A DNA stretch of 64,000 nt, from the NCBI GenBank assembly GCA_964019335.1, contig OZ025654.1, positions 744,001 through 808,000 of the forward strand. The letters run 5' to 3'. Shown here in pieces: positions 3,200-40,442 of the stretch. The notes beneath the pieces were generated by a model. That model saw only the letters and a list, made by a program, of their open reading frames with translations. It was not told the origin of the DNA and made no database searches. Position 1 is the first letter of the stretch, and each line of letters starts with the position of its first letter. The DNA comes from Diplonema japonicum (taxonomy: Eukaryota > Protista > Euglenozoa: Diplonemea). Made by a program: the position numbers and the translations under genes.

Positions 3200-6130
3200 T
3201 CACAGAAGTGACAGCGTATTAGTCGAGGGGAAAAGGTTGAAGGTGCTCTCTGTGTCCATTGTCACGCTGAATGAAGTCTCAGTAGCCGAGGGAACTTGGA
3301 GTTCTGCCACGGCGTACTCCGACTGTTGTTGCAACGAATAGTTCTGCTGGATACGGCGACGGCGTCGTGTGTAAAAAGTGTAAAGTTCAGTGAGAACGTC
3401 TAAGAGCAGCTTGATGAAGAGAAGCCCCGTTGCGACATTGACGACGGCCGATGACACGGTGAACATGACTCCTTCGTTCTCTTCTGTATAGAAGCCCACA
3501 GCCATGCACACCAGCGACAGAAACATGGTGAAGTGGATCAAAGGTTCCCGACAGAGTCCCTCATCCTGCAGAACGGCTTCAAAAAGGTCAGTAATATTGT
3601 CCAACAAAAATACAATATCCCTGAGAACAGCTTCGCGTCACCGCAGCTCCTGAAGCTCTTCTCGTCGCGCACGTTGCAGAACGCCAACAAGAACATCAAC
3701 CCGCAGTACAGTAGCAGCCCAAACCTCACGCACCTCTCGTCGTACTGCTTCAGCACTGACAGGTACATCGCATTCTCCTTCCCCCCACTCTTCACTGCCA
3801 CCCACTCTCCAGGTCCAATGACAAACCGAAGTGTCTTGTCTCCGGCGTACTTACACCTCTCCGGCACCAACGTGAATATGAGCCTTGAGTACCACAGCGG
3901 GATCACTAAGCACAGGCAGCTTCCTACCACCCCTAGAATGGTTTCCCACACGTGATTTTGTTTGTGAATCATCAGTTTTGTCGAGCAGAACGCGATGCCT
4001 TGATACAGGAATACAAACACAAGCATGCCTGCCGCTGGGTGCAGAAGCACACCCCTGCTCGTTGTGATGCTGCAACTCTTCGCTTTTGCGTAGACAAGCA
4101 CAGCCACGTAGTGCAGGACGTTGAAGGTGACCACGATGGCCAGGTTGCCCACCACAGCGCCAGACAGCTCGTTACCTGCGAGCTTGAGTCTAGTTGGATG
4201 CAGTACGGTGCTGAGTTTGAAGTGTGCGTCGGGGAGGCATGCACTGTACAGTACCATACCCATCTGCGTGCCGTAAATAGCAGACGATGGCGAGGTGAAC
4301 ATGCTGGCAGCACCCATAGCTGTCACAATGAAGACTGCCTTTTCGGTTTTGTCAGATGCAGGGAGGTCGAAGGTGGCGTTGGGCATGGCCTCAGGCTCTG
4401 CTTCAACAGGGGAATCAGAGGCCTCGGTTCCTGTGACAGACACCTCTTTTTCCACTGGAACTGAGTACGACAGAGTGCCTGTAGCAGTTGGTTCAAGATT
4501 AGGAGGCAATGTGATAGTAGAAGTGATAGCAGGCAATGTGATAGTGGTAGGCCACGTGGCGGGAGCCAGGGTGATTGCAACAGGAGACGGAGACGGCAAC
4601 ATTGAAAACGGGGATATCGAATATGGCAGCAGTGTTGGTAAAGCTGCAAGTGTAGGAGGCGGGGGGGTGGCTGGGGAAACAGTGGAATGATTGAGGAAGC
4701 AAATGTGGGAAGACATCGAGTCGCAGCGTGCAAGGCATATCTTGCCTTGTCTACAGCTTCCAATGGATCCACAGCGGTTCTTAGGGTCATAGGTAGACCA
4801 ATCAAAAAGGTCGAAGGTCTCAGACTTGGCGGCATCCCCATTGGCCAACGTCCAATCGTTCCCCGTGCTACCTTTGATCAGCGAGGTCCAGATTGGCTGC
4901 CCCTGCATCAAGGACTTCACCGCATCACGCATTGCATCGTCGGTTATGGTCAAGTTGCACTGCCCAAATGGCCCTGGGGTGGCGTCGTACGTGTAGCAGG
5001 TGCTGCCTACAGTTGCACCGGTACATCTATGAGAAGCTACTGTGTCAGGGCACACAACAGGCATCATCGAACTGCAGGGCACCTCAACTAGAAGCCCGTT
5101 AGTGTCGAGTGCTGCACACCCGTACATGTTATTTGGGTGGGCCGGGTGCCAATCAGCCCAAGCCGCCCAGGACCCAGGCCATGACCACTCACCCCTATTT
5201 GCATTCAGGAGGTTGACACCTGTCCATGCCTGACTTGGCAGGTGCGCGTTGTCGTACAAGTACGCTAAGTCGGCGTCGGTTTTAGGAGCTGCCAAAATAG
5301 CTCCCTTGGAGAGAGTGTCGCAAAAAGTCACGTCGTAGACTGTTGTAGCTAAAGACACTTCGTAACACGTGCTCCCCAACAGGACAGCGTTTGCGCTGCA
5401 CCCTGTGGCCACGGGGTACTGGCACAGCGCAGGGAGCTTGGTCTGGCAGTACTCTGAACAGTGCTTGCCCTTCACGCACGAGGTGCCTACTGTGGCACAG
5501 GCTGCATGTCTTCAGGCTGCAATGCAGCCCAGAACGGAGTGGCCGCCCAAGAGTCATGGGATTGCTGAAACCGATAACACCCTGGGCGTGGCCAGCGCTG
5601 GAAAGAAGTGCCGACACAGCGACGAGGTCTGAAAGGGTGGTGATGTGGATGAACGGCACAGCTGAGCTGGGCTGTTTTCTCAGTTCACTGCAGAGACCTG
5701 TACTAAGGCGCATCCCCGGACAGGGACTCAGGGTACTTCCATAGATGTACGCACTAGATGTAGTGCAAGAACAGCTAGTAATTAGATGTATCAATGCCGT
5801 CAGACACACGCAAGCACTCGACGACGAGGGTTCGTCCGTGAGCCACACCTCGCTATGCAACAGCGAGCTGCTGGTATCTAGGATGTCAAATGCGTTTCGT
5901 GCAGCCTGTAGCCTGTTGATCCCTAGCCATCCTTTCACATTCACTAACTTCAAGTCATCTTCTTGGTAAGTATCGAGAGGCTTTGCATCTGGATCGACGG
6001 TACTACAAATTTCATCCTCCCATGGAGACAGGGTTGCTGATGCGATGATGCACAACCGAGAGTTGGGCAGCCACTGCCAGCCAGTGGCACATTGCGCTGG
6101 GAGCACTGTTGTGAGGAGCAGCAGTATCAT
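3200..6130 (-). pseudogene. C-type-lectin-like repeats, S/T/P stalk and multi-pass TM protein, interrupted by 3 indels (pseudogene or assembly errors)
   Basis: Signal peptide MILLLLTTVLPAQC; CTL-like motifs (WLGINR, WTGVN..GEWSW, HPNN..GCAAL..C); many TM helices. Frame breaks: 7-bp and 4-bp deletions near 5554 and 5507 (both intact in the copy at 33.3-33.6 kb) and a probable missing T near 3540. Restored length about 980 aa. Confidence 0.75.
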
Positions 6131-24000: not shown

Positions 24001-27000
24001 GAGTATCAGGAGCTACACTAAGGAACACAGCACGCTCTAGGTCCACCAGCAGGGCCTCTTCGTGTCCTTTCAGCTCTGCAGGGCTGACCATCATACGTAC
24101 TTCAACAAGAACGCTTTTCTTGATACCTGGTGCACCTCTTGTTTCTCTTGTCAGCCTCTTGCAGGCCGTTGAGGCACGCCACACTTCGTCAGAGACAAAG
24201 CTTGATGCAAACACCTTGATATCGCATGTGTGACAACGTGCCCTGGCAGGCCTCGGCCGTGGCTTAGACCCAGGGGGCGCAGGGCAAGCACCGCGATGCA
24301 CAAACCCAACACAAGAGGCAGTCCTCTCACAGTGCAGCTTGCATGTGTCGATGTCGTCGACGTCGATAACGCGGTACAGGTCGCCACCCTCAAGGTTGCT
24401 GTCCTCTTGACAATCGTAGTCATCGGTGGGCTGTATCGACAGGGCCTGTACCTCTCTGGAGTACTCCGCACCCTTGAGCAGGCAGTGAATGACTTGAGTG
24501 GTACTTGTTGCTGAGGGTTTATAAGTGCGCAAAAAGTCGCAAGTAGCTGTCCTTGCCTTGTACCTCACTGCACCGCAGTATGCGACACCGAAGCACTCTT
24601 CAGCGCACTTTGAGGCAGACGCAGTTCCCTTTGTGCTGCTGATCACCTCGCCTTGCACGTCGCCATGCTTGCAAGTGAACCTGTCCGTCGCGACGTCGCC
24701 TGTCTCCGCCTTCCTCGTGCAGCTAGTGGCGTCTTCTGACTTTGGGACAGAAACTTCCTTTATAATGTAGTCCAGTAAGCGACATGTTACCGTTCTTGTT
24801 TTCCTTTTGTAGACAATACCCAAGCAGGAAGACACTTGTGTGCATTTTTTCTCGCACTCAGCTATCGTCAGCCCCGTGAAGGAAGCTCCTTTTGTATCAC
24901 CTTTCAGTGCAACATGCTTTGTACAAGAATATGTTGGTGTTATTTCAACCTGCTGTGGTGTGTCCCAGGCTTCTTGTTTTGTGCAGTGTAACGACCCCTT
25001 GCACTCCTGAGGCACGGAAAGGGCTTTCAGCAACGCGCAATGTTTATCTTTATACGAAAAAGCGATGCAGGCAGAGATCTCTTTGCAGTGGGACTGGCAT
25101 TTCGTCAGACTGATGGGATTGAACTGCAGCAGCACGGCAGCTTCTTCTTCTGCAGCTGACGAATCGTTAAAGCAGACAAAGGGTGCGCTCTCTTTAGGGG
25201 CATCCGGTTGGCACTCGTACTGCAGGGTGGGTGTGTTCTTGTGCTTGCCGCAGCCTATCATGTGGTGATCTACGAGGCCATTGTCCCATTGTATCTTGTA
25301 CCACCCTCCTCCCCTGCATGGTTTGGCTTTCTTCAAGATTGTACCCTTGATCACACCCGCCGTGGCCGGGTCTTCTCTTATCACTTCCAAGCCCTGTTTG
25401 ACAACTTCGCTTGTCACATGACAACGTGGGTGAGGTACTCGCAAGCAGGATTCTCTGTCTGTGTCCTGCGTGCTGCCGCTGTCTTCGTAGATAGCATCGT
25501 ACAGCATGCACGTGTTGTTGCTTTCTTTGTATGTGACGCCAACGCACTGATCGTACTCGCTGCAACTTTCTTTGCATCCGTCAAGTGATGTCGTAGACAC
25601 GTGGTTGTTGTGCCCTGCCACTTGCACGTTGCAGTCGTAATACGACTTCCTACTTCTACCTCCTCCCCTACCCCTTCCTTGGCCACGCGTTACAGCTGTC
25701 AATGCAGTGTGGTGACACCCTGCAAGTGCAAGATCATACTGGCCATCGCAGCCTGCTTTGTAACTTCCCTTCGTGTCCGTTTCCTTCCAGTACACCATCA
25801 CCCAGTATCCACCCGGGCACTCAGCCGACCTCTCAATCACAGTGCCTGACCCCCTCCCGTCCTCGTTTTGATATGCCCAGTCTGCACCCCTCACCACCTC
25901 CAAGCCTTTGTCAAGCTTGTCGGGGAACACTCGACAGTCGTGCTCTGTTTCTTCTTCCTGCTCGTCCTCGTCCTCATCCGAGTGTGTCTTTGAGTCTTCA
26001 GGCATCTTGCACCCCGCCTGTCCTGACACGACACGGAAAGACCGCGGACGGATCGTGGGCTCTTCGCATGAAGTCATCAGCCAGCATCTTTCGTTGTTTC
26101 CATTCCACGTGAAGCAAGTGCACCCTACCTCATCCTTGCACAACGCAGAGCATGCATCAGCTCCAGTTGCTTCTCTGTATGTCTCTTCCAGGTTCTCGTT
26201 TCCCTCTCTAATACTGTTATATTGTGTATCGATCTCACATAGTGGCACCTCTTGGGCCACCAGCTGGTGACACACAGGCAACCCGCTCCACCCCGTCACC
26301 TGGCACACGACCACGTCACAGGTGTGGCCTGGCTTTATAGCTTCGCACGTCTCGCCGATTGCAAGGGTGGTGTTGCACGGGATGACAAGGTCGGTGCCCT
26401 GCAGCAGCGAGGTGTGGCACAAGGAGGGCGTGCAGACGGGCTGCACGGGGAACCAGGTGGAGTTCTGCAAGCAAGACACCGCCTCGCATGTGTGACCCTC
26501 CAAACTATAAGCGCAGTAGGAAAGTGGTGGCGTGCGCTGCTCGTCAGCATCAGGGCACGTCAGCTTCCCAGCCGTGAAGGCAGCAGTCAGGTCTGACAAG
26601 CTGCAGCCTCCCTGGGGTGCTGTGCGCCAGCCTGTGACGGTACAAGTGGTGTTCAAACCGCCGATTTTACGGGTTTCATAGATGTTGTGGTGAGTGTCAT
26701 CTGCGGTGCAGTAGCGCACCTCGCCGCCTTCGCAGAATTGGTGTTCGAGCATGTTGATGCGCTCTGTGGTCCGTGTCCTGCCCCATGCTACGCTGGCGTG
26801 CGTGTTGTTGATGAGTGCGATGATGTTCCCCTCCTCGGCTGTGTTCCTGTGGCGCACCTCGGCAGGTTTGGGGCCGGTCACAGAGCACATTGCGTAGCTT
26901 GTTGCCAAACTGCAGTCTTCCTCGCCTGCCACGTGCTCCCCTGACTCACTGTATCCGTCCACGCTGCCGTACAGGGAACACTCCTTCGACAGCACCGACC

Positions 27001-27169
27001 AGTCCCATCCCTTGCACCCACCCTCACCAAGGCACAGGGTGTGACATGTGTCTAACCTTCTGCTATGTCCCTTCGTGGCGTCCCTGCCATTCACCTTGTA
27101 ACCCCTCCTACATGGCTCAGTGTTGCTTGCCGCACACAGCAGAAGTAGCAGAGGTGCAGCGGTGACCAT
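15089..27169 (-). CDS. Giant single-pass receptor-like protein (~4026 aa): many PAN/apple repeats, two MIB/HERC2-like modules, laminin-type EGF, TM, cytoplasmic PDZ-like and SH3/Tudor-like domains
   Basis: Signal peptide MVTAAPLLLLLCAAS; more than 20 CxxxCxxxxxC...C-x-L repeats; CSSNG..CTCTC..YAGAKCDACAEGF; TM WWFVFPATAFAILAIVVALFVIL; KKTAEPMGLVW..VTVNSPAE..VNG. No introns. Confidence 0.92.
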   Translation of the reverse strand: MVTAAPLLLLLCAASNTEPCRRGYKVNGRDATKGHSRRLDTCHTLCLGEGGCKGWDWSVLSKECSLYGSVDGYSESGEHVAGEEDCSLATSYAMCSVTGPKPAEVRHRNTAEEGNIIALINNTHASVAWGRTRTTERINMLEHQFCEGGEVRYCTADDTHHNIYETRKIGGLNTTCTVTGWRTAPQGGCSLSDLTAAFTAGKLTCPDADEQRTPPLSYCAYSLEGHTCEAVSCLQNSTWFPVQPVCTPSLCHTSLLQGTDLVIPCNTTLAIGETCEAIKPGHTCDVVVCQVTGWSGLPVCHQLVAQEVPLCEIDTQYNSIREGNENLEETYREATGADACSALCKDEVGCTCFTWNGNNERCWLMTSCEEPTIRPRSFRVVSGQAGCKMPEDSKTHSDEDEDEQEEETEHDCRVFPDKLDKGLEVVRGADWAYQNEDGRGSGTVIERSAECPGGYWVMVYWKETDTKGSYKAGCDGQYDLALAGCHHTALTAVTRGQGRGRGGGRSRKSYYDCNVQVAGHNNHVSTTSLDGCKESCSEYDQCVGVTYKESNNTCMLYDAIYEDSGSTQDTDRESCLRVPHPRCHVTSEVVKQGLEVIREDPATAGVIKGTILKKAKPCRGGGWYKIQWDNGLVDHHMIGCGKHKNTPTLQYECQPDAPKESAPFVCFNDSSAAEEEAAVLLQFNPISLTKCQSHCKEISACIAFSYKDKHCALLKALSVPQECKGSLHCTKQEAWDTPQQVEITPTYSCTKHVALKGDTKGASFTGLTIAECEKKCTQVSSCLGIVYKRKTRTVTCRLLDYIIKEVSVPKSEDATSCTRKAETGDVATDRFTCKHGDVQGEVISSTKGTASASKCAEECFGVAYCGAVRYKARTATCDFLRTYKPSATSTTQVIHCLLKGAEYSREVQALSIQPTDDYDCQEDSNLEGGDLYRVIDVDDIDTCKLHCERTASCVGFVHRGACPAPPGSKPRPRPARARCHTCDIKVFASSFVSDEVWRASTACKRLTRETRGAPGIKKSVLVEVRMMVSPAELKGHEEALLVDLERAVFLSVAPDTLSILACRDPGTPLDITDDSCGGGVGAVGVSVYSLITFEIVQPADSISDGQTFTEFRSMVETRIAASIAKPDSDISRKYEALEVEVKVRAKAIEDPLFDWQRKSRYSSPDCEYNKDITADDKILEVQKVESVELCRNYCPLVAGCVAVSYNDMQYCRLYRAVEEVHGVDPNTNTVLCIGKIVPDSNMRLSINIELPVDVQTLSDLKEPLMSGMATSLGISQDYMDISIISSTGLLSRTYNTLETQGTAVRVMAQAEKLEPQQVHEVVLARAVELVHAAAKDYTCLPRRSFSAEKLLTMKNVLTSTECIRTCDMTSACQTATYFQSDKSCVLGKQGTSVRDSDAAVGCEVTFDETDAEATHYACTQGATFMGGDLLGFEAGSIEACKSACDSLPKCNLVTYNNNTNICRLKKYSEALLAGTDGKDMSCRLLSNNTQHAGYSCQKGADFDGSQLFVVNDVSSTKSCATYCSKVVECTAVKWNAVEKLCVVFRDVIQGGEQKSGVESCSKLKREVAKLTGEKFTCTEGQKGHGSELASLTVDNWDDALSACSATPFCKAVSCHHTSCNLIGVLDSISTTPGHVLCIDPTNSDDATSVNAVLGDLPLAYNRKVYSCEEGSLNGGDIRMTSAPSLAACQYSCNADTACNKISYTAASSWCLLKDSSAVLAQAEDVISCMLTDSYYCEEDKRHLEYEQGAFQISLAECKEKCDSTPSCKSLTYDNSCHLAREGEMQGTAPGSLVCYPATPYSCMTSTKHYVKGAFVWEGPLLSLRECQIKCDATPTCVRAVYVPTTNDCTLLGISGKWAASDLAEPHVTCSKGMSYSCEEERDWEGAPIVTLSDVDTIVECQENCDTTPDCMLVVYDGLAQTCKLLERGTPASRAQEHKSLQSCVRSYKQVSMYACRTSAKYEGNILAVHHTASMEQCQGMCGKAANCTGVSFFKEICTLHRSTRAFLESSEHDSFACERTLALENDPAPYTCGDNGLGRGAAEDLLGVLYHAATSEACKSFCDILPSCTCYNYLWSGDHVRCMFYPSCTKGSDKQTCAKAKRTQKSFTPRDDLRKTLNCTANPSPTKWKLLYSVIDVDTVQACTTKCAQVTNCKYIEWKDHDKECILLGTGKGYIVKSTSLGCEVLPDVTRAIRRTKTFKCSTDLSLLGNRFIVASHSTKESCKARCEESFTCSAIHYSQDDKTCTLFGTSVLMMSKALSRKIKVYREVPAGVACVVVTPGKELQEEFVCAKGKGHIGGDMLSMLKVPFAKCKSLCTVIPQCIGLTYEGNKQCSLRTTGAVMSARLTTVACNRDHSLYSGQLRSAFTCTSSLSFSGKTLITVAGITSPADCSLLCSSYSYAIIPMLCTASSHYKANDTCVLFKGKVTGRYMPHTKQKIMSCKRDGDTDGQAKPTMEEIIRSTTVTYKCDKGKTEAPVYGSELFVIENINDVKTCQLQCYNTKGCIALVYEQKDTTCLLLDSVPVPAATTKLEESKETCWEEVGSVRGCECSNSCSGVCDITPSRDCTLETLWMECDIVRKSRMATFLSAKTSVVTVIVTMKQPGLSAAVFEGVQFPSDDSGSSGFLISLDVRVPDGVSHATFSRDVLKRLKEIHESSTILPGALDASLHALGLKPWAETRWSLREKERAVYYSSNEEDSAPFDDVTSSGPRRALLQLDEGGQPQLDVERRNERIKGILNLLAAGDTNPCTAGWADADYGVMSNRYNLETQWYLKGTLAECIEACKVRDECVAFSRVYGEDMANSACYFKRRLLPIIGSQVTFSGYRTYIYKCPEQGLTCDFAEHEDAELEAADQFRSEEISVLQMKITSSSVCKAACVMMWDCKGTTYFEATRQCHFIQEPADHVTTAQGATSFICSQRVATTPQPTPAPTLLKTSLLERWQAVIYNEFDANVTDVSDGAVTPTLTLPVQDMVVRYTTENVTEQHALHLTYENTDVSSFFNKDDRFGASYLAELLSQMATELGVLPTDIELKELCRADVAGKPLDCYYANGTAISSARTAQFLQAQAASVFIDLDINIKKEEVLQTATLPSGKTLSIGPEELFPPGSRILDDSGNVQGTADSMGRVTRTPQAQEVFSKYTSSVDLPLSPALATSMLSEKKKYTSQGLISFVESHATQWVNGNHLGTVCHKGVNGSTVACNGSPECTIVGDCSSNGFPQGFKGACTCTCLPAYAGAKCDACAEGFTGFPYCTPEGIRSPVDIPKWMHHVEKWDDSNMYQTFHLVVSDAPDMLMRRLYSFTTELRRALGDMARMVWMLHLCKTELCNGTCPEVRVDSWNDDLFAHCAVLYPVEYGNETVSESSDRSRAHALSVQKTLVELDVEYDTAPPAVQDIVAALLQVPAVVSVVSITQPGKRMSPHNEREQQAPYATHEAIIDTNNGSKLFDWWFVFPATAFAILAIVVALFVILRVIRKRDDGARSQLIMMKHEVFIEKKTAEPMGLVWEDHTLLKSVTVNSPAEHADAQRFIGRRAVRVNGINVETLRGIKEAAGNSVLVHIEFERQGPCLAIKLVGNAMGVDEKWFIKTLVCEADLDEADITVVGILEPDLLASTSKAVYLVLFRVNGWLQFQADGFIQRCRDLEDPIHNTMHISGISYARLDDIRIARNKYGDEDDCLEPLNLWVACSWAKKEQVASCHGVYTRHDVLHNGYPVWERDRREEDNYDRLCYRTKTGLWAVCSTHEEMSQNIGYLVSGKTLQGPHLGRNEWEDYDGGGSTDYSVTANPVVIRGYCLGDTVRVTTNTPWKGIVRGQGKKEATVKVKMCDGSNITTHKDNVDITNGPFVNVRNEDAEWSTGQIVNISEDDTRVKVHVCLEPYEAAKWYNKNSEDLQLEKLDIAIGDTVELVEDVIPSEDTCMIHGEIGMVLQILSDGETSTPFGVKGPDGSVAWYSEEMLKPVDTASTAKPEGSVAWRSVLPQPEVKRRASKANLATMLVNNRIEHMHDPHTPTSSSQSSHLIDMSNDVDSTVL

Positions 27170-28364
27170 AGTGCTTGAGGTGATCGTTGTGTTAGGAAGG
27201 TGGTGAGGGAAGAAAAAAAAGAGTAGGGAGAACATAAGAAAAAGAAGAAGTGAAGAGAAAAAAATAAAAAAGAAGGTGTGAGGGAAAAAAAAAAAGAAGG
27301 GGAGAGAATTTTTTTTGGGCGGAGGGGGTACTACTTGTTCTTCATTTGGTGGGCTTTTTTTAAGTATTTTTTTTTTTGTTGCAAATTTCCTTAAGAAGAA
27401 CAAGGATGGGGAAACAGGGTGAGGCAAGGGGGTGGGGGGGATGAAGAGTAGGCTCAATAAAGAAAAGTGTTTATATTTCCTTAAATATCATTGTTCGCAA
27501 AAAAAAGGGGGGGTATGAGAGAGAACAAAAATAAAAGTCCACCCCCTTCATAAAACCGAGAGAAGAGAAAGAAAACCACATTTTAACCAATAAAAAAATC
27601 AACCGAAGAAAAATAAAAGAAAAAGAACAGTGTCTCGCAACAACGTGTGGGGTTTCTTTTTTATATGTTTTTTTTTTATTTTTTTTTTTTGCGAGGAGGT
27701 GAGTGGGAGTTCAAAGCCTTTTTTTTTTTTTTTTTTTTTTTTTCCTTTTTTTTTTTTCTAAGACTTCCTGACATTAGTTCATTATTTCTCTCTTTCTCAA
27801 GTTTTCTTTTCCCCTTTTTGGGCTATGTGAAAGTTGCATTCTATATTTTTTTTTTCTTTCTGAATACGTGCATGGGGGTAGAAAAAAAAAATAAATTTTT
27901 TCCAAAAGCAAAAAAAAGGGGGGGAGAGAAGGGGGGGGGACAGAATAAATAAATAAAAAAGCACTTCCCAGACTGCTACCATATTTTGATTTTCTCGTAG
28001 TTAGTTTTATTTGTCATCCCATCCAACTCCTTCCACACCCTCTGCATGCGAATTGCAAAAGAGGGCAAGGAGTCGTGGGACCAAAATCCTTTTTTTTACA
28101 CTAAGCCAAACGGAAGGGAAAAGAAAAAAAAAAAAAAAACCGAATAAAAAGGGAGAAAAAAAATAAGACCTGGGATCGCGCTGCTTTTCTTCTGTCAAAA
28201 AAAAAAAAAAGATAAACATTTGTAACAAGAAAAAACAAAAAAAAAAAGAGAAGAAAAAAAACCAACAAAGAGAAGAACCTCACCACTTTCCTCTCAATAC
28301 TTCTTTTTTTTTTGTGTGCGTGTTGTGTGCATGTGCTTGTGCCGAAAATAACAAACTATCTTCG

Positions 28365-31196: not shown

Positions 31197-32064
31197 GTGA
31201 GTGAGGGTATCTGAAGTGTCGGATGAACAGCTGAAAAAGAAACTCAATAACATTTCAGTGTGCATGGTGCTCACTGTGAAGAAAGAGAAAAAACCAATAA
31301 AGAGGAGCAAGCAAAGTAGAGGGGTGAGTTTCAAAACAAGGAAAGGGGCACAATTTTATTCATTGAATTGAACTGTGGCGAGTGAACCACACAAGGGCTG
31401 CACCACCTGGCTGGCCATCTGAAACGTCTCCATACTATCTGTGGCAGCACAGAAGTGTGGCTTAAAAAAAAAAAAAGAAAAGAGGTGGGAAAGAATAATG
31501 ACGTTAGTTGCTTTATAAATCGCCTGGCACACAAGCAACTTTCAGGGCTGACGGCGACCAAGCTGAAAGGACTGAGAGAAGATTACCGGAAAGAAAGGAT
31601 TGGAAGATATAAGTGTCAGCTAGGCACTACGGTGGGTAGCAGGGAACGACCCCAAAAGGGAGCATGACCGAAGCCGAAGGGGAACATGGCTATAGCATTC
31701 TCGCATTCTCTCACAAAAGAAAAAAAAAAGAGACATTTTTCTTTTTTTTTTTTTAAATTCCACCTCCTCTTGGTCTAGCCAGACCGACCCCACCCAGCTG
31801 GGCTGTGTGGAGCCAACGGAAGTGTGTTGAGACGTTCGTGCTTTCGTGTCGGCCTGTGTTATTGTTCTAGCACCTTTGTGACATGGGTATTCTCTTTCCA
31901 CAGTTGGCTAATGGCTTTTTTTTTTTTTTTTTTTTTTTTTTTTTCTCCTTTGGTTGCCAGTCCTCGGGATTCTTTTTTTTTCTTTTTTCTTTTTTTTTTC
32001 TTTCTGGTCCATGCACATGGGGGAAGAGGGTTGTTGGGGTTTATGTTATTTTTTCTTTCTTTCC

Positions 32065-32455
32065 TTTTTTTTTTTTTTTTTTTTTTTTTTCTTTCTATTT
32101 GTTTACACTTGATTTGTTTTCTTCCTGCTGCCTTTTGATTAGCTTGCTAGGTATACGGCTAGTCGGTGGGGGTTAGTCGGTGGGCTCGTCAGGGGGCTTG
32201 TGGGCTTGCCTTGGGGCTTGTAGGTTGTCTATTTGGTGTCCTCGAGGAACCTGATTGCCCTCTTCGGGTCTTTGATGAGGATGTGCTCCAGCGTGTGGAT
32301 GTCATAGTGCTTGTCTCTGGCCGCCTTGGTCGCTGGGCACTCTAGGAGGAGGTGTTGTAGTGTTCTCTGTGTTGTGCCGTCGCATTTTTCGCAGGTGCGT
32401 TGGGTTGTGTACTCCTCTTTGAGCAGGTGGTGATGACCAGTCTTCACCATACTAG
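32065..32455 (-). mobile_element. 3' end of a non-LTR retrotransposon (I/Ingi-like): C-terminal CCHC knuckle, 3' UTR and A tail
   Basis: KTGHH...CEKCDG..RTLQHLLLECPA..AR..., stop at 32229, a C-rich UTR, then an A26 run (T 32065-32090 on +). Confidence 0.7.
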
Positions 32456-33645
32456 TGTCTCTGGCGTACTTACACCTCTCTGGCACCAACGTGAATATGA
32501 GCCTTGAGTACCACAGCGGGATCACTAAGCACAGGCAGCTTCCTACCACCCCTAGAATGGTTTCCCACACGTGATTTTGTTTGTGAATCATCAGTTTTGT
32601 CGAGCAGAACGCGATGCCTTGATACAGGAATACAAACACAAGCATGCCTGCCGCTGGGTGCAGAAGCACACCCCTGCTCGTTGTGATGCTGCAACTCTTC
32701 GCTTTTGCGTAGACAAGCACAGCCACGTAGTGCAGGACGTTGAAGGTGACCACGATGGCCAGGTTGCCCACCACAGCGCCAGACAGCTCGTTACCTGCGA
32801 GCTTGAGTCTAGTTGGATGCAGTACGGTGCTGAGTTTGAAGTGTGCGTCGGGGAGGCATGCACTGTACAGTACCATACCCATCTGCGTGCCGTAAATAGC
32901 AGACGATGGCGAGGTGAACATGCTGGCAGCACCCATAGCTGTCACAATGAAGACTGCCTTTTCGGTTTTGTCAGATGCAGGGAGGTCGAAGGTGGCGTTG
33001 GGCATGGCCTCAGGCTCTGCTTCAACAGGGGAATCAGAGGCCTCGGTTCCTGTGACAGACACCTCTTTTTCCACTGGAACTGAGTACGACAGAGTGCCTG
33101 TAGCAGTTGGTTCAAGATTAGGAGGCAATGTGATAGTAGAAGTGATAGCAGGCAATGTGATAGTGGTAGGCCACGTGGCGGGAGCCAGGGTGATTGCAAC
33201 AGGAGACGGAGACGGCAACATTGAAAACGGGGATATCGAATATGGCAGCAGTGTTGGTAAAGCTGCAAGTGTAGGAGGCGGGGGGGTGGCTGGGGAAACA
33301 GTGGAATGATTGAGGAAGCAAATGTGGGAAGACAACAGCGTTTGCACTGCACCCTGTGGCCACAGGGTACTGGCACAGCACAGGGAGCTTGGTCTGGCAG
33401 TACTCTGAACAGTGCTTGCCCTTCACGCACAAGGTGCCTACTGTGGCACAGGCTGCATAGATGTCTTCAGGCTGCAATGCAGCCCAGAATGGAGTGGCCA
33501 CCCAAGAGTAGCGGGTCATGGGATTGCTAAAACCGATAACACCCTGGGCATGGCCAGTGCTGGAAAGAAGTGCCAACACAGTGACAAGGTCTGAAAGGGT
33601 GGTGATGTGGATGAATGGCACAGCTGAGCTGGGCTGTTTTCTCAG
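32456..33645 (-). pseudogene. Partial duplicate of the 3200-6130 lectin/TM gene with an internal ~670-bp deletion, fused in frame to the LINE tail
   Basis: 32456-33334 matches 3837-4715 (2 substitutions); 33335-33645 matches ~5384-5683 (13 substitutions, 2 indels). Confidence 0.92.
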
Positions 33646-33681
33646 AAAAAAAAATTTGGGGTCAAAAAACTAGTTTGGTGC

Positions 33682-33940
33682 TGAAGAACAGGCATGAAAA
33701 AGGGTTGAGGGAGGACCAGAATGCTTTTTCTTTCATCCCTCTCTGCTTTTTTTACTTTTCGCTTTTTTCAATGTTTTATTCATACTTTTTTTTTTTTTTA
33801 AAAATAAACCTCTTTTTTTTTAGGCTGGCCAGACCATTCTCTCTTCTTTCTTTTTCCCTCCTCCCAACCAGGGGTGTGTGGGGGTGGGTGGGGGAAAGGG
33901 AAAACAGAAATCAACTAAAGTAATTCTCAATTACTCAGGG
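33682..33940 (+). repeat. Composite repeat: inverted copy of 35781-35894, partial copy of the 37200 arm, inverted copy of 35913-35938
   Basis: Direct alignment, e.g. CTAAAGTAATTCTCAATTACTCAGGG versus CCCTGAGTAATTGAGAATTACTTTAG. Confidence 0.85.
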
Positions 33941-34291
33941 TGTGAAAAAATGTGAGAAGACAAGAAAAAAAAGAAGGAAAAAAAAAAAAAGGTAAACACA
34001 TCATGCATATCAAAAAAAAATCAAGGATTTTTTTCTCTTTTTTTTTTCCCCACTTAAAAAAAAAAAAAAAAAAAAAAAAAGGGAGGTTGAAACCCAACTC
34101 ACAGCCTTCACATGGCACCTCCTGTAAGTAAGCTTTGGCTGAAACTAATGTGAGCATGGTAAACAAAAACAAAAAATACACAAGGGTGAGAGGGTAGGTT
34201 TTAAATGATGAGAAGAGTTAACAGAGGAAGCCAAAGAGAGCAGTAGTGAAAAAGTGAATTGACAAGGGGGGGAAAGAGGGAGGAGAAGCAG

Positions 34292-34609
34292 ATGAGGAAA
34301 AGGGGAAAGAAAAAAAAAAGGAAAGGAGAAGAGGTAAAAAACCCACTTCTATTTTTTGGCAAATACTTGTAGATAAAGGACCCACAATTTTGTGGTATGA
34401 GTACTCACCCCCCCTCCCCAAAAGGTGAGAAAGCACCCATTAAAAACTAGCAAGCTATGATTTGCTTGTGTTCTTCTTTTTTTTGACTCTTTGATTTCTG
34501 TTTTCCCTTTCCCCCACCCACCCCCCTGGCTGGGAGGAGGGAAAAAGAAAAAAGAGAGAATGGTCTGGCCAGCCTAAAAAAAAAGAGGTTTATTTAAAAA
34601 AAAAAAAAC
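34292..34609 (-). repeat. Left arm of a ~318-bp inverted repeat (partner 37200-37516)
   Basis: Reverse complement of 37200-37516, identical apart from homopolymer length. Confidence 0.95.
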
Positions 34610-34680
34610 ACAAGGAGGCTCATGGTTCCTGGGGTTGATCAACATGTGGTGCTGAACATCATCCATGGACAGCTGAGGAC

Positions 34681-34830
34681 ATCCCAAGTCACTGTGGTAT
34701 TGCAGGGAATGAAGTGGCTGACAGGCTGGCAGCAGCGGGTGTGAAGGAACAACAGAGGCAGCCAGTGAGCCTTGGAGCAGCGAAAAACAAGCAAATACAA
34801 CATTTGATGTGGAAAGCAGAAACAACAGCT
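34681..34830 (+). mobile_element. RNase H C-terminal fragment of a non-LTR retrotransposon
   Basis: IPSHCGIAGNEVADRLAAAG matches the W(V/I)P(S/G)HxGIxGNExADxLA motif; absent from the ORF track. Confidence 0.8.
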
Positions 34831-35938
34831 TGGGGTGGTCCACAAGAGGACTGGAGAGGTATTGGCACTGGTACATGCTGTTGAGGGATCGAAGGTGCCA
34901 TGTTCCACAGGACTTCTGCAAGGTGCTGGTGGTCCTCCTGCCTTGTCTGCTCCAGCCACTGCTCCAACTGCTGTGTCCTCTGCTCCATTACGGTGATGGC
35001 TGCCTGCACCTGGCCTTCCAGCCCACCTCCTGCCTGAGCTATGCAGTACACCTCCTCCTGTGTCTGCTGTGTCCCCTCCTTTGCAAGCCGGTGTGCCTGC
35101 TGGGCCTCTGCTCCTGCCTGCTCAACCCTCCTGAGGGTGAGGGAGTGCTCTCCCTCTAGCACCTGCAGCCTTGAGATAGCCTCAGAGAGGCATCCTTCCA
35201 GGCCTGCCTTTGTTGCAGCAGACCCACCCTTCTCATCCACAATCATCTTGGCAATCTCCCTTGCCTCTGCCTGTGCAGCCTCAAACAGGTGCTGCTGCTG
35301 CCTTGCCTTTGCTGCCAGCTCCAAGCTGTGGCCACACACCTCGTCCACCTCTCCTCTGACACCGTTGAGGACAGAGGCCATCCTCTGCTGGTGCTGCCTC
35401 TGCTCCTCCAGGCCAGATGTGAGGTCTTCCACATCTTCCTGGACATTGGTTGTGCGTCCCTGGTCCTTCCTTCCCCTCTTGGGTGTGCCTGTGCGTGTCC
35501 TTATTGCAGGTAGGAGGGGTGTCACCTCCACCACCTGCTCTGCAAAATGGGCAAAGGCATTTACTTCACCTGTTCCTTCCTCAGCCAGATAGGCACCTGC
35601 ATCATTGACACCCACTGTGCCAACTACGTGCTCTTCAGCACCGTCTGGTCCCCTCAAGTGCACCTGCACCCTCTGCCCATTCAACGCTTCGTACTGCAAC
35701 ATTTTCCTGAGCAAACAGGGGATTTCGGACAGATCACTGCCAGAAAAACCACAAAAAAGGATCAATGAATATAAGAGTATAAAAGTATGAATAAAGCATT
35801 GAAAAAAAAAAAGCGAAAAGTAAAAAAAAGCAGAGAGGGATGAAAGAAAAAGCTTTCTGGTCCTCCCTTGACCCTTTCTCACACCTGTTCTTCACACGTC
35901 CCAGGTGGTACTCCCTGAGTAATTGAGAATTACTTTAG
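34830..35938 (-). mobile_element. Repeat-family leader plus coiled-coil ORF (ATG 35702), possibly a retroelement ORF1/gag-like gene, truncated
   Basis: MLQYEALNGQRVQVHLRGPDG..., a long coiled coil and a P/Q tail. Other copies at 37845-38500, 33682-33790 and 40015-40395. Strongly CpG-depleted. Confidence 0.55.
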
Positions 35939-36131
35939 CAATATCAGCCTTGGTAAGGGCACTACTGGGGGGAATTTTTTTTTTTTTTGCAAAAAAATAA
36001 AAAAAAAGTCCATTTTGAGGGTGCCTGACTTTAACAACACAAGGGTATAAACATCTTGGGGCCTTACTCAACAGACAGTTTAAGCTATCTCTTTCTTGAA
36101 GTATTTTTTTCCAAGATATACAAAAAAGAAG

Positions 36132-36759
36132 TTTCCCTACAAAATACCAACCTAGTTTTTAGTAACAGGTTAAAAATAGGTTACCAACTACCTTCACGAA
36201 CTTGTGGTTGAAAGCATGTGAAAAGAGCTTAGAGAAGATGAAGTATTCTATAACTAGGTTATAGAGTCAGTTTACTATGGTTTACCAGAAAGCTTTATGA
36301 ATTTGTGGATAAAACCATGTGGAAAGAGTTGGGGGAATACCAACCTAGTTTTTAGTAACAGGTTAAAAAATAGGAAGTAGTTGTCTTGTCAAAATCATGG
36401 TTGAAAGCATGTGAAAAGAGCTAAGAGAAGATGAAGTATTCTATAACTAGGTAAAAGAGTCAGTTTACTATGGGTTACCAGCTAGCTTCACAAACTTGTG
36501 GTTGAAAGCATGTGGAAAGAGTTGGGGGATGATTTTCCTATGGAATACCAACCTAGTTTTTAGTAACAGGTTAAAAATAGGTTACCAACTACCTTCTTGA
36601 ACTTGTGGTTGAAAGCATGTGAAAAGAGCTTAGAGAAGATGAAGTATTCTATAACTAGGTTATAGAGTCAGTTTACTATGGGTTACCAGATAGCTTCATG
36701 AACTTGTGGATAAAACCATGTAGAAAGAGTCTGAGGATGATTTTCCCTATGGAATACCA
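36132..36759. repeat. AT-rich tandem satellite, about 3 copies of a ~208-bp unit built from two ~100-bp related halves
   Basis: AATACCA recurs at about 36143, 36336, 36544 and 36753; a GGTTACCA...TTGTGG.TGAAAGCATGTG core recurs about every 100 bp. Confidence 0.92.
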
Positions 36760-36776
36760 TCTTTTAATATCTCTCC

Positions 36777-37199
36777 ATGATGGCAGCTGAGCTAGCAGAT
36801 GGGAGGGACTCCTACGATGCCATGCCAGAAGGAGCCAACCTGGACACGAACATGTGGTGGAGGTCACTCTTGGGCAACCCAGTGGTGGCATACCAACTGA
36901 GGAGGCTGATTGCAGGAGTGGTGTTTACAGTCTACCCAGGAGTGTGGGGCATGGCACAGGAACCAAACAACCCACTGCAGCACCTCTGCAACGTGTGTGA
37001 GGAATGGTTTGGCAGCTACACGGAGGTGCTGGAACACGCCCTCTGGTGATGCAAGCCAGGTGTCACAGTGTGGAGCAAGATGGAGTATGCAAACCTGGAC
37101 CTGGCAGCTATGCCAAAGGTGACGAGGCTCCATGGGGTGGTGCCCAGAGGCTGCCAAGACAAGCCAAGGGCCTTACTGGTGCAGAAGTACCTGCTGGAG
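36777..37199 (+). pseudogene. Degenerate coding fragment, probably transposon-derived
   Basis: GC-rich, CpG-poor, protein-like frame (..NLDTNMWWRSLLGNP..LCNVCEEWF..) with a stop, wedged between the satellite and the inverted arm. Confidence 0.35.
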
Positions 37200-37516
37200 G
37201 TTTTTTTTTTTTAAATAAACCTCTTTTTTTTTAGGCTGGCCAGACCATTCTCTCTTTTTTCTTTTTCCCTCCTCCCAGCCAGGGGGGTGGGTGGGGGAAA
37301 GGGAAAACAGAAATCAAAGAGTCAAAAAAAAGAAGAACACAAGCAAATCATAGCTTGCTAGTTTTTAATGGGTGCTTTCTCACCTTTTGGGGAGGGGGGG
37401 TGAGTACTCATACCACAAAATTGTGGGTCCTTTATCTACAAGTATTTGCCAAAAAATAGAAGTGGGTTTTTTACCTCTTCTCCTTTCCTTTTTTTTTTCT
37501 TTCCCCTTTTCCTCAT
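37200..37516 (+). repeat. Right arm of the ~318-bp inverted repeat
   Basis: Reverse complement of 34292-34609. Confidence 0.95.
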
Positions 37517-37895
37517 AAAACACTGATAAACGCAAATGATAGAGGGAGGTAGGTGGGAGGGACACTTGTGAGGGGTTCCAATTAAAGGAGTGAGCAACAC
37601 CTGGTCTGCCTTGGCAGTGCCTAAGTGTTGATGTTGGGTGGTACTCAAGCTTGGATCTGCAGTGTAGGGTTATTCCATGCTTTGGGATTGGCTTGGAGGG
37701 CTTGTTCCCTACCCCCATGTCACTCTTGCATGTTTCTTTTCCCTTTCGTTTTTTTTTTTTTTTTTTTTTAAAGAAATGTCGATGATTAATTATGATGGGG
37801 GGTAGGTAGATTAGATGAGAAAAAAAATAAGAAACCCCCCCCCCTCATGGAGAAAGTGCACCTTGCTGGTGCTGCTGAGGAAACTTGTAGGTGTG

Positions 37896-38500
37896 TTGGG
37901 GTGGTCCACAAGAGGACTGGAGAGGTATTGGCACTGGTACATGCTGTTGAGGGATCGAAGGTGCCATGTTCCACAGGACTTCTGCAAGGTGCTGGTGGTC
38001 CTCCTGCCTTGTCTGCTCCAGCCACTGCTCCAACTGCTGTGTCCTCTGCTCCATTACGGTGATGGCTGCCTGCACCTGGCCTTCCAGCCCACCTCCTGCC
38101 TGAGCTATGCAGTACACCTCCTCCTGTGTCTGCTGTGTCCCCTCCTTTGCAAGCCGGTGTGCCTGCTGGGCCTCTGCTCCTGCCTGCTCAACCCTCCTGA
38201 GGGTGAGGGAGTGCTCTCCCTCTAGCACCTGCAGCCTTGAGATAGCCTCAGAGAGGCATCCTTCCAGGCCTGCCTTTGTTGCAGCAGACCCACCCTTCTC
38301 ATCCACAATCATCTTGGCAATCTCCCTTGCCTCTGCCTGTGCAGCCTCAAACAGGTGCTGCTGCTGCCTTGCCTTTGCTGCCAGCTCCAAGCTGTGGCCA
38401 CACACCTCGTCCACCTCTCCTCTGACACCGTTGAGGACAGAGGCCATCCTCTGCTGGTGCTGCCTCTGCTCCTCCAGGCCAGATGTGAGGTCTTCCACAT
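37896..38500 (-). repeat. 605-bp direct repeat of 34830-35434 (second copy of the coiled-coil ORF)
   Basis: Constant offset of 3066 bp; apparently identical. Confidence 0.95.
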
Positions 38501-38907
38501 TCCTTTGCTTTGAACTACTTTGCTTGGGATAATCCTGTGGTGAGCTGTGGCAGACAGGAGGCCTTCTCACTTCACTCTGTGTACTGCTTGCTTTTCAATA
38601 CGTTCTTTACCGGTTCACACTGCCCACAGTGCATGCTCCGTTATGCTGGTCATCGTCTGGGATCGGTGGTTGCAAACGTCACACTAGTGCTGGTTTCCAC
38701 ACCAGGCCATCCGTTTCCCGTGTGACCACGAAGCACACCAGGCGGTGGACGCCCGTGTGCAAGCCGGTCACAACGTGCATGGTGATGATGGACACAGCAG
38801 CGTGCAAGAGCGATGTGAACTGTGCCTGGGACTGCAGGTACCCTTAAATGACACACCACAGGTACCCTTAAATGTCTCTTTTCTTTTTCTTTTTTTCTTT
38901 TTTTTTA

Positions 38908-39770
38908 TTTAACTCCACCAGAATTTTCATGGGTGGGAGTGAAAATAAGAATTCACTTTATTTCACTCCTGACTTTATTTTCACACTCCGGCTTCTAAAA
39001 GAAATTAGGCCCAGGAGTGAAAAAATTCTGATAGCGTTAAAATAGAAATATTATTTCACTCCTGGGCCTAATTTAAGCAAAACCCTCCAAAAATTCCTAC
39101 CAAGGTTCCTTTGGGATGGGCAAGAACCCGACTGCACAAGAGGACGCAGCAGGGTTCACCCCCTTCCAAGAGTCATACGAAAAGGAGTGGGCACACTTTT
39201 GTGTGTTTCATAATTATAGGAAGGAAAAGAAGGGCCCGTCCGAAAGAGGAGGATTCTATTCTCTATTTCAGCGACATGAACAAGCAAGGCCTGCTGCCAG
39301 TTCAGTCTGGGCGGCTTATTCAAGGCTAAACTCGGTTGTGAAGAGGAATTACAACAAGCAGTTGCAAGACCACCTCCGACTAAAGGTCCCCCTCAAGAGG
39401 TTCCAAGAAGGCGAGTCAACAAAAAAGGCGAACATCTTACCCAAGAGCAAATGACAGAATTCTTTAGCGAGGTATGGCATCGTCTGCCACGCTTATGCAG
39501 CGTTGATGTTTGCAGGAAACATGTGCACTACCGAGGCACATATCCGACACCTGTTGTAATTGGTACCACCTGTACCTCCCACCCACTCAAATTTTGCTGT
39601 CATTAAATAAAATATTGTATTTGTGAATAACAGATTGATGATTTCACTTGTGGTGGCAGTTTTGACTCGTTAAACGTTATAACACTCGCTTCGCTCGTGA
39701 TATAACCGTCAAAACCACTGCCACCACACATGAAATCATAGGATCTTATATTCACTAAATAAATAGTTAT
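38908..39770 (+). mobile_element. Degenerate Crypton-like tyrosine-recombinase element with hairpin ends
   Basis: Frameshifted pieces SYEKEWAHF / PKEEDSILYFSDM / ASSVWAAYSRLNSV..LKRFQEGESTKKANI / TQEQMTEFFS / AYAALMFAGNM. A 21-bp perfect inverted repeat at 39002-39022/39054-39074 and a long hairpin at 39619-39760 centred on ACTCGCTTCGCTCGT. Confidence 0.55.
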
Positions 39771-39798
39771 TCTTTTCTTTTTCCTTTTGGTTGGGAAT

Positions 39799-39915
39799 GG
39801 TACTCTCCGACCTACTAGGATGCTAGTAGGAGCCCTTGAAGGGTGCCTCTTGCCTGATGAGGACAGCACCTAGAGGAGTTGCAAGAGTGAGTCCGAAACT
39901 GAGAGATACCTAGTA
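39799..39915 (+). ncRNA. Hammerhead-ribozyme-like motif, probably degenerate
   Basis: CTGATGA-GGAC-(26 nt)-GTCC-GAAAC core; candidate stem III GGTACTCTC/GAGAG(A)TACC. Stem I and the cleavage triplet are not cleanly formed. Confidence 0.35.
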
Positions 39916-40014
39916 CTGCCACGAAAGTTCGGTCCAGGAGGGCCTTATTCCCTGTGCAGCTCTCACGCAGAGCAAAAATGATGTCCCTTCACTGCATGCC
40001 AATTTGAGTTTTTT

Positions 40015-40395
40015 TCATTCCTCTCTGCTTTTACTTTTGATTTCTTCAATGTTTTTATTCATACTTTTATAGTCTTTTATTCATTGATCCTTTTTTGTGG
40101 TTTTTCTGGCAGTGTTACTTACCATACAGTGATCTGTCCGAAATCCCCTGTTCGTGAGCCCACCCCTGCCTGGGCCATGTGGTACTCCTCCTGCGTCCAC
40201 TGTGTCCCCTCCTTTACAAGCTTGCTGTGCCTCTGCCCCTGCTTTCTCAACCCTCCTGAGGGTGAGCGAGTGTTCCCCTCCAGCACCTGCAACCGTGATA
40301 TAGCCTCTGAAAGGCACCCTCCAGGCCTGCATTTGTCGCAGCTGATCCGCCCTTCTTCTTCCTCAGCCAGAAAAGTTCCTGCATCATTGACACAA
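40015..40395. repeat. Diverged, rearranged third copy of the leader/coiled-coil element
   Basis: 40015-40152 matches the leader in + orientation, with a 17-bp insert bounded by CAGTG; 40155-40395 matches ORF pieces in - orientation. Confidence 0.8.
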
Positions 40396-40442
40396 CACCA
40401 ATGCCAATTTTAAAAACACACACGTTTACAAACAGGAGAAAC

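What the first reader, a model, noticed from the sequence alone, without database searches (positions are those of the whole stretch)
33335..33645. Directional CpG deamination in a gene copy that landed in the island
Seen: against its source (5384-5683), 12 of 13 substitutions are CG->CA or CG->TG, all in this copy (e.g. TTGCGC->TTGCAC, AGAACG->AGAATG, GGGCGT->GGGCAT). The two changes near 32462 and 32481 are also CG->TG. Other repeat pairs show the reciprocal TG-versus-CA signature (GGCATG/GGTGTG and GTTGAGG/GTCAAGG at 33691-33710 versus 35865-35885; CACGAAC/CACAAAC/CATGAAC in the satellite). Established: this is the footprint of 5-methylcytosine deamination or a RIP-like process. Inference: it depends on position, since the source copy in the gene cluster kept its CpGs.
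Basis: partly seen in the sequence, partly recalled or inferred. Interest (0 to 1): 0.8.

Follow-up and report, generated by a model that had tools for sequence, protein, structure and literature searches.

The report
Methylation scar in a diplonemid genome
In a marine flagellate (a diplonemid), a piece of a lectin-like gene copied into a nest of broken jumping genes has lost 12 of its 15 CG pairs while the parent copy kept all of them, likely the scar of DNA methylation on silenced repeats, a mark that the papers I searched only predict for this group.

Summary
At 33335-33645 versus 5384-5683, 12 of 13 substitutions are CG>TG/CA, all in the copy (12 of 15 CpGs lost; P about 1e-12). Contigs of two public runs from two studies carry these letters, so base-calling error is unlikely. 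A second island element lost 14 of the 19 CpGs of its read-majority form, which confirms the direction. The genome is a diplonemid. All 3 diplonemids in a published table encode DNMT5, and none has DNMT1, DIM2 or RID. Best reading: deamination of 5-methyl-CpG in a transposon-debris island (0.7); classical RIP fits poorly. Three corrections: (1) the adjacent 853 bp of the same copy is identical to the parent and keeps 35 of 35 CpGs, so position alone does not explain it; it is likely a later gene-conversion patch. (2) The 'source' is itself frameshifted by 4- and 7-base deletions that the copy lacks. (3) A pair outside the island is also CpG-biased. The process is textbook; the lineage is what is new. 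5mC itself and this species' DNMT genes were not tested. The scan noted similar islands in fungi, none in this genome.

The parts
33335..33645 (-). Old, CpG-decayed copy of a C-type-lectin-like coding segment (matches 5384-5683); 12 of 15 CpGs lost; frame open across the 4- and 7-nt segments that the parent lacks
   Evidence: Atlas first hit Lectin_C 0.92 for this frame versus 0.79 hypothetical protein for the parent's frame; Pfam found nothing on it; run contigs
32482..33334 (-). 853-bp stretch identical to 3863-4715, 35 of 35 CpGs kept; inferred younger gene-conversion patch
   Evidence: X1 contig of exactly 32482-33334 at depth 1749 versus 911-1001 for parent-type contigs; X4 contig depth 21.1 versus 21.3 expected for two copies
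32456..32481 (-). 26-bp stub of the gene copy with 2 of 3 CpGs lost (32462, 32481); inferred remnant of the old copy
   Evidence: X1 contig 32415-32511 with 0 differences
32107..32455 (-). 3' end of a multicopy LINE-like element, same strand as the gene piece, followed by an A-rich tract (T-run near 32060-32090 on +); 3 CpG losses against other copies, 1 change the other way
   Evidence: zf-RVT E=0.011, below the Pfam cut-off; high summed depth and variant letters; contexts
3538..6130 (-). Parent gene: C-type lectin / DGF-1_C-like protein, frameshifted by deletions of 4 nt (between 5505 and 5506) and 7 nt (between 5552 and 5553); CpGs intact
   Evidence: Lectin_C E=5e-10, DGF-1_C E=5e-6 below cut-off; ORFs; both deletions in contigs of X1, X4 and X6
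33335..38500 (.). CpG-depleted core of the repeat island: CpG observed/expected 0.13, against 0.67-0.92 in 91 overlapping same-size windows outside
34657..34743 (+). RNase H remnant of a retroelement
   Evidence: Pfam RNase_H E=0.017, below cut-off
36775..37050 (+). Fragment of a multicopy element with a weak C2H2 zinc-finger match; 14 of the 19 CpGs of its read-majority form lost, 3 other changes among the listed rows
   Evidence: 0-difference contigs of the decayed form in X1 and X3; zf-C2H2_4 E=0.12
36130..36760 (.). Tandem repeat (about 200-bp period) with CG/CA/TG variants at one site; 1 CpG left
33682..33789 (.). Repeat piece, inverted partner at 35781-35894, with two reciprocal TG/CA sites
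34830..35434 (-). 605-bp exact direct duplicate of 37896-38500; both copies share the decayed state, so the duplication is inferred to postdate the decay

Best explanation
The 311-bp gene copy lost 12 of 15 CpGs by C-to-T change on either strand, likely because it lay in CG-methylated, silenced transposon debris where 5-methylcytosine deaminated to T and was poorly repaired, while the parent, inferred to be unmethylated in its gene cluster, kept them. Shown: the spectrum, its direction, its presence in run contigs, the same loss in neighbouring repeat fragments, and the sharp island. Inferred: (a) the copy arose as a chimeric retrocopy, in which a LINE reverse transcriptase copied its own 3' end, switched to the lectin mRNA, skipped 668 nt and stopped; (b) the methylase is DNMT5; (c) the middle 853 bp was later overwritten by gene conversion from the parent, which reset its CpGs and left decayed ends; (d) the parent acquired its two frameshifting deletions after the copy was made.
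For: Spectrum and statistics. Contigs with the copy's letters in X4 and X1, two studies. Polarity from multicopy families: at 36775-37050, 14 of 17 listed differences are CpG losses in the window; across all 40 listed rows 23 are clean CpG losses, two sites are reciprocal TG/CA (4 rows), 13 are other, and none has a CpG kept in the window and lost in the reads. Over all places, A>G plus T>C versus C>T plus G>A was 68:25 in X4, 55:17 in X1, 58:15 in X6. Selection does not explain the parent's CpGs: all 15 sites have a synonymous CpG change available and the parent is frameshifted. Both strands are hit and no CG>TA double change occurs among the 15 sites, as expected for symmetric CG methylation. 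Enzyme: Sulcionema 2, Rhynchopus 2, Hemistasia 1 DNMT5; 0 DNMT1, DIM2, DNMT4 (PMC12344493 Supplementary Table 1). D. papillatum has predicted 5mC methyltransferases (PMC10161547). Patch: 0 of 35 CpGs lost, 0 other changes and 0 indels in 853 bp, against 12 of 15, 1 and 2 in 300 bp; its ends coincide with the ends of the homology block, and the 26-bp stub is decayed. Retrocopy: LINE 3' end, A-rich tract and gene piece are co-oriented.
Against: No 5mC was measured, and no genome is held, so this species' DNMT genes are unchecked. In DNMT5-type algae CG methylation is reported not to raise C mutation (PMC11884799 passages, on few mutations), so DNMT5 alone does not predict this loss. The CpG to non-CpG rate ratio (point about 200, Jeffreys 95% 39-2093, most conservative bound 18) is above the roughly 15-fold of primates (PMC2265638), which may point to more than passive decay. 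CpG bias also shows outside the island (4 of 6, P=0.004). Repeats at 38501-40000 keep o/e 0.55-0.63. In the LINE piece one listed change (32382) has the CpG in the window and not in some reads. X1 lacks copy-type letters at 33431-33586 and X6 lacks the copy. 113 rows were hidden. No target-site duplication was found, so the retrocopy origin is unproven.
Confidence: 0.7

Rival explanations
1. An active, enzyme-driven CG mutator (a methyltransferase-coupled deamination or a CG-preferring deaminase) targets silenced repeats, comparable to the mitotic RIP-like action of Dim2 in Zymoseptoria but CG-specific.
For: Very high CpG to non-CpG ratio: 12 CpG changes against 1 other (Jeffreys interval 39-2093). 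A post-hoc strand-choice bias: at asymmetric sites the mutated C is on the CGG strand 15 times versus 3 (P=0.0075 uncorrected, 4 bases tested, 40 events). DNMT5 algae show no such loss. Precedent for methylase-dependent mitotic C>T in repeats (PMC8016269 passages).
Against: The ratio rests on one non-CpG event and on a pair chosen for being extreme; the most conservative bounds are 18-fold (all non-CpG sites) and 10-fold (non-CpG C/G sites), close to the primate value. A low replication error rate or missing T:G repair would also give a high ratio (inference). No candidate enzyme was identified.
Confidence: 0.2
2. Classical RIP: homology-triggered C>T mutation of both copies of a duplication during a sexual cycle, by a RID-like enzyme.
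For: Near-pure C>T transitions in duplicated DNA; CpG-type signatures occur in some fungal transposons (PMC4352252 passages).
Against: The parent shows no loss; the 853-bp duplicate and the exact 605-bp linked repeat are untouched; no strand bias and no TpCpG preference; DNMT4/RID absent from 3 of 3 tabulated diplonemids and described as confined to fungi. PMC4352252 itself assigns CpG signatures to methylation plus deamination rather than RIP.
Confidence: 0.04
3. Base-calling or polishing artefact at modified CpGs in a long-read assembly.
For: X1 shows only parent-type letters at 33431-33586 and X6 has no copy; library types are not on record, and one run may be the assembly's own data.
Against: 0-difference contigs carrying the TG/CA letters exist in X4 (33401-33752) and X1 (33305-33410, 32415-32511), different studies, beside separate parent-type contigs; likewise at 36770-37040 in X1 and X3. 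The 4- and 7-nt indels and the 668-nt jump separate the two copies independently of any CpG call.
Confidence: 0.03
4. For the 853-bp stretch only: it is as old as the rest but lies outside the methylated domain.
For: It sits at the left edge of the island, next to normal-CpG DNA.
Against: Decayed CpGs flank it on both sides (32462, 32481, the LINE piece, 33346 onward); the switch falls at the 668-nt junction; it also lacks non-CpG changes and indels (0 in 853 bp versus 3 events in 300 bp).
Confidence: 0.15

Closest known systems
CpG decay of methylated transposons in basidiomycetes (Microbotryum violaceum, Melampsora, Puccinia; PMC4352252, passages read)
   Same: C>T transitions at CpG concentrated in repeat copies, no RID gene, attributed to methylation followed by deamination.
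   Different: There the enzyme is a DNMT1/Masc2-like protein and Microbotryum prefers TpCpG; here no 5' base preference (P=0.93), and the tabulated diplonemids lack DNMT1 and carry DNMT5.
DNMT5-maintained CG methylation of transposons (Phaeodactylum tricornutum, Cryptococcus neoformans; PMC9998398 passages; 10.1101/149385 search listing only)
   Same: CG-specific, repeat-focused mark made without DNMT1; DNMT5 with its SNF2 domain is reported in euglenozoans.
   Different: Methylation is measured there and only inferred here. In DNMT5-type green algae methylated CG is reported not to be hypermutable, whereas this island lost about three quarters of its CpGs.
Dim2-dependent mitotic C>T mutation in Zymoseptoria tritici repeats (PMC8016269, passages read)
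   Same: Methylase-linked C>T loss confined to repeat regions, not requiring the sexual cycle.
   Different: Dim2 acts mainly at CA besides CG and is fungal; here CpG dominates and CpA is not depleted (o/e 1.17).
Chimeric retrocopies by LINE template switching, such as U6/L1 chimeras (recalled, no call)
   Same: Cellular-RNA piece joined upstream of a co-oriented LINE 3' end with an A-rich tail.
   Different: An internal mRNA piece with a second 668-nt jump; no target-site duplication found.

Membership tests
5mC-deamination decay of methylated repeats | Excess of CG>TG/CA over other substitutions, polarised by an outgroup | tested here: met
   12 of 13; 14 of 17 listed differences against the read majority at 36775-37050
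5mC-deamination decay of methylated repeats | Both strands hit (symmetric CG) | tested here: met
   8 CA and 4 TG in the copy; 7 and 7 in the zinc-finger element
5mC-deamination decay of methylated repeats | Loss concentrated in repeat-rich DNA | tested here: met
   o/e 0.13 versus 0.67-0.92 outside; but weaker CpG bias also in one outside pair, and some flanking repeats keep o/e 0.55-0.63
5mC-deamination decay of methylated repeats | 5-methylcytosine present at those CpGs | not testable with these tools
   Only contigs were available; no modification calls
5mC-deamination decay of methylated repeats | A DNA-acting C5-methyltransferase in the genome | not testable with these tools
   No genome held; DNMT5 in 3 of 3 other diplonemids
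RIP (RID-dependent) | Both members of a duplication mutated | tested here: not met
   Parent keeps 15 of 15 CpGs with no reciprocal sites; 853-bp and 605-bp duplicates unchanged
RIP (RID-dependent) | CpA (or TpCpG) target preference | tested here: not met
   CpA o/e 1.17, TpA 0.53 in the island; 5' base unbiased over 40 events
RIP (RID-dependent) | RID/DNMT4 gene and a sexual cycle | not testable with these tools
   DNMT4 is 0 in 3 of 3 tabulated diplonemids; this species unchecked
LINE template-switch chimeric retrocopy | Host-gene piece fused to a co-oriented LINE 3' end with A-rich tail | tested here: met
   the LINE assignment rests on a sub-threshold zf-RVT match and high copy number
LINE template-switch chimeric retrocopy | Target-site duplication around the insertion | tested here: inconclusive
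   Search of 31301-32260 against 38481-40460 gave only one AT-rich 13-mer; the true right end may be buried by later insertions

The most novel reading that the evidence does not exclude
Diplonemids run a CG-specific, repeat-targeted mutator, DNMT5-marked heterochromatin coupled to unrepaired or enzyme-assisted deamination, that erases CpGs some 40- to 200-fold faster than background: a RIP-like genome defence in outcome, independent of RID and DNMT1, in a eukaryotic branch where trypanosomatid relatives have no detectable 5mC.
Probability: 0.2. Interest if true: 0.75.

Novelty: new member of a known kind. Interest (0 to 1): 0.45.

Why it matters
The mutational process is textbook, but its presence here is sequence evidence that the predicted diplonemid 5mC pathway acts on DNA and targets transposon debris. 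Trypanosomatid relatives have no detectable 5mC (PMC7463849 passages), and the only discoban methylome in the papers I read is Naegleria, attributed to DNMT1. If DNMT5 is the enzyme, it contrasts with DNMT5 algae, where methylated CG is reported not to be hypermutable. The locus also offers a built-in experiment: a fresh 853-bp patch with 35 intact CpGs beside an old 311-bp piece, both with a parent copy 28 kb away, so existing long-read signal data could test methylation by position directly.

Tried and rejected
No whole genome is held, so the genome-wide paralog spectrum and the DNMT search could not be run. Two homolog searches with the parent's 657-aa ORF (longer and near lengths) and one metagenome scan found no relative, so there is no cross-species outgroup for the lectin gene; run X11 (another organism) covers only repeat pieces. 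No RNA holder was listed; this says nothing on expression. X6 has no cover of the copy's junctions: it may be another strain or another library type, and I draw nothing from it. Pfam did not recognise the copy's frame, and BLASTP to the parent's second lectin domain gave only a gap-free 24% match at E=1.7; the lectin call rests on the Atlas (143 shared features, below the 170 typical of true family hits) with the parent frame as control. TpCpG preference and strand bias were tested and not found. Selection on the parent as the cause of asymmetry was rejected. No target-site duplication was found. Additional file 1 of PMC10161547, whose section 8 covers 5mC enzymes, was too large to read and may name the D. 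papillatum DNMTs; supplements of PMC12697944 had no hit for five methylase terms. A search on T:G repair enzymes in trypanosomes gave 6 listings that I did not read, so poor repair stays an untested inference. Eight paper searches listed no diplonemid methylome or CpG-decay study; the library lacks most subscription papers.

Full report
Observation. A self-comparison of the window shows two adjacent pieces of one gene copied next to a repeat island: 32456-33334 matches 3837-4715 (879 bp, 2 differences) and 33335-33645 matches 5384-5683, with the 668 bases between them missing. In the second piece a global alignment gives 13 substitutions and two indels. Twelve substitutions are CG in the parent and TG (4) or CA (8) in the copy, none runs the other way, and 12 of 15 parent CpGs are gone. 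The chance of this under random placement is 1.2e-12, or 6e-10 counting only C/G positions. CpG observed/expected is 0.13 over 33335-38500 and 0.67-0.92 in all 91 overlapping same-size windows outside.

Is it an artefact? Eleven of 12 listed public runs hold part of the stretch; all are kept as contigs and their library types are not on record. Four were laid on 32000-34300. X4 has a 352-base contig identical to 33401-33752 at depth 20.4, covering 9 of the 12 CpG changes and both indels, and a separate parent-type contig at 15.3. X1, from another study, has identical contigs over 33305-33410 (the junction and the other 3 changes), 32415-32511 (both left-end changes) and 33617-33751. Against this, X1 shows only parent-type letters at 33431-33586, which could be a collapsed bubble, X6 holds only the parent form, and X11 does not cover the gene. 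One run may be the assembly's own data. I rate a base-calling artefact at about 3%.

Direction. No cross-species relative of the gene was found, so polarity comes from multicopy repeats. Laying four runs on 36770-40420 listed 40 rows, with 113 hidden. At 36775-37050, 14 of 17 listed differences are CpG in the deep read majority and TG or CA in the window (7 and 7), leaving 5 of 19 CpGs; the decayed form has its own identical contigs in X1 and X3. Over all 40 rows 23 are clean CpG losses, 4 rows form two reciprocal TG/CA sites, 13 are other, and none is a CpG kept only in the window. Counting every place, hidden rows included, changes toward C/G in the reads outnumber the reverse 68:25, 55:17 and 58:15 in X4, X1 and X6. 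In the LINE piece three listed changes are CpG losses in the window and one runs the other way. Selection cannot explain the parent's intact CpGs: each of the 15 sites has a synonymous CpG change available, and 6 of the copy's 12 changes are synonymous.

The organism. A neighbouring hydrolase has its best hits in Diplonema ambulator (64%) and Flectonema neradi (45%), so this is a diplonemid; I did not determine the species. Earlier scan notes on this genome also say Diplonema (unchecked AI notes).

First, the 'source' is broken. The copy reads as one open frame across its extra 4 and 7 bases, and that frame looks like a C-type lectin domain (Atlas 0.92, 28 of 30 hits Lectin_C), whereas the parent's frame does not (0.79). 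Pfam did not confirm the copy's frame. Both deletions are in X1, X4 and X6 contigs. So the parent likely lost these bases after the copy was made. Second, 32482-33334 is identical to the parent for 853 bp and keeps 35 of 35 CpGs, between a decayed 26-bp stub (2 of 3 lost) and the decayed 311-bp piece. Depths fit two identical copies: 1749 versus 911-1001 in X1, and 21.1 observed versus 21.3 expected in X4. At the old piece's loss rate, 0 of 35 has probability below 1e-11, and the patch's exposure is at most about 5% of the old piece's. Its ends coincide with the ends of the homology block, which is what gene conversion from the parent would give (inference). Third, on the minus strand the order is gene piece, gene piece, LINE-like 3' end (zf-RVT E=0.011; multicopy), A-rich tract. 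That layout suggests a template-switch retrocopy (inference; the U6/L1 analogy is recalled). No target-site duplication was found.

Mechanism. Loss on both strands, restricted to CpG, concentrated in transposon debris and sparing the parent fits symmetric CG methylation followed by deamination. Supplementary Table 1 of PMC12344493 lists DNMT5 in all three diplonemids sampled (2, 2, 1 copies) and no DNMT1, DIM2 or DNMT4; DNMT6 is in two and DNMT3 in one. PMC10161547 reports methyltransferase homologs in D. papillatum without measuring 5mC in the passages I read, and an expanded methylase orthogroup in its supplement; its Additional file 1 could not be read. Leishmania, with DNMT6 alone, has no detectable 5mC (PMC7463849). 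DNMT5 is therefore the likeliest enzyme, but this species' genes were not checked. Classical RIP fits poorly: the parent, the patch and an exact 605-bp linked repeat are untouched, and there is no strand bias or TpCpG preference.

What remains odd. The rate per CpG cytosine is about 200 times the non-CpG divergence (Jeffreys 95% 39-2093; most conservative bound 18), against about 15 in primates (PMC2265638 abstract), and methylated CG in DNMT5-type green algae is reported not to be hypermutable (PMC11884799). The estimate rests on one non-CpG event in a pair picked for being extreme, so I give an active mutator 20%. A post-hoc bias toward the CGG strand (15 versus 3, P=0.0075 uncorrected) is a lead only. 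Position dependence is not absolute: a pair outside the island has 4 of 6 changes at CpG, two each way (P=0.004), and repeats at 38501-40000 keep o/e 0.55-0.63.

What I read. PMC10161547: passages and supplement rows. PMC12344493: passages and Supplementary Table 1 rows. PMC9998398, PMC7463849, PMC8016269, PMC11884799, PMC4352252: passages. PMC2265638: abstract and summary passages. PMC12697944: supplement search only, no hits. Eight searches listed no diplonemid methylome or CpG-decay paper; most subscription journals are not searched.

Verdict. The feature is real and well supported. It is a known process, 5mC-type CpG decay of repeats, seen in a lineage where the papers searched only predict methylation from gene content. 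New member of a known kind; interest 0.45.

Noticed in passing
window 32229-33422 (-): The gene patch runs in frame into the LINE-like C-terminal piece, giving a 397-codon open frame; may be chance.
   Followed up: partly
window 5505-5553: The parent lectin-like gene carries 4- and 7-nt deletions that break its frame, present in three runs; both have 2-nt repeats at their ends (AT, GT), as microhomology-mediated repair would leave.
   Followed up: partly
window 32456-33751 and 40186-40307: Run X6 has no contig for the copy's junctions and no cover at the island's right edge, though it holds the parent: another strain, or a library in which the island is not represented.
   Followed up: no
window 47699-47834 and 49197-49323: Partial gene duplicate outside the island with 4 of 6 substitutions at CpG, two in each direction, plus small deletions.
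   Followed up: partly
window 34689-35891 (-), 37845-38594 (-), 40009-40356: Three pieces of an element with a long open frame and no Pfam match, possibly a retroelement ORF1; the 40157-40356 copy is about 81% identical and keeps more CpGs.
   Followed up: partly
window 34292-34607 and 37201-37516: Exact inverted duplicate of about 316 bp with no CpG left.
   Followed up: no
window 15089-27487 (-): A 4132-codon open frame with many short cysteine-rich repeats resembling PAN/apple modules (label recalled, not scanned).
   Followed up: no
40 CpG-loss events across the island: At asymmetric sites the mutated C is more often on the strand reading CGG (15 vs 3); post-hoc, untested elsewhere.
   Followed up: partly
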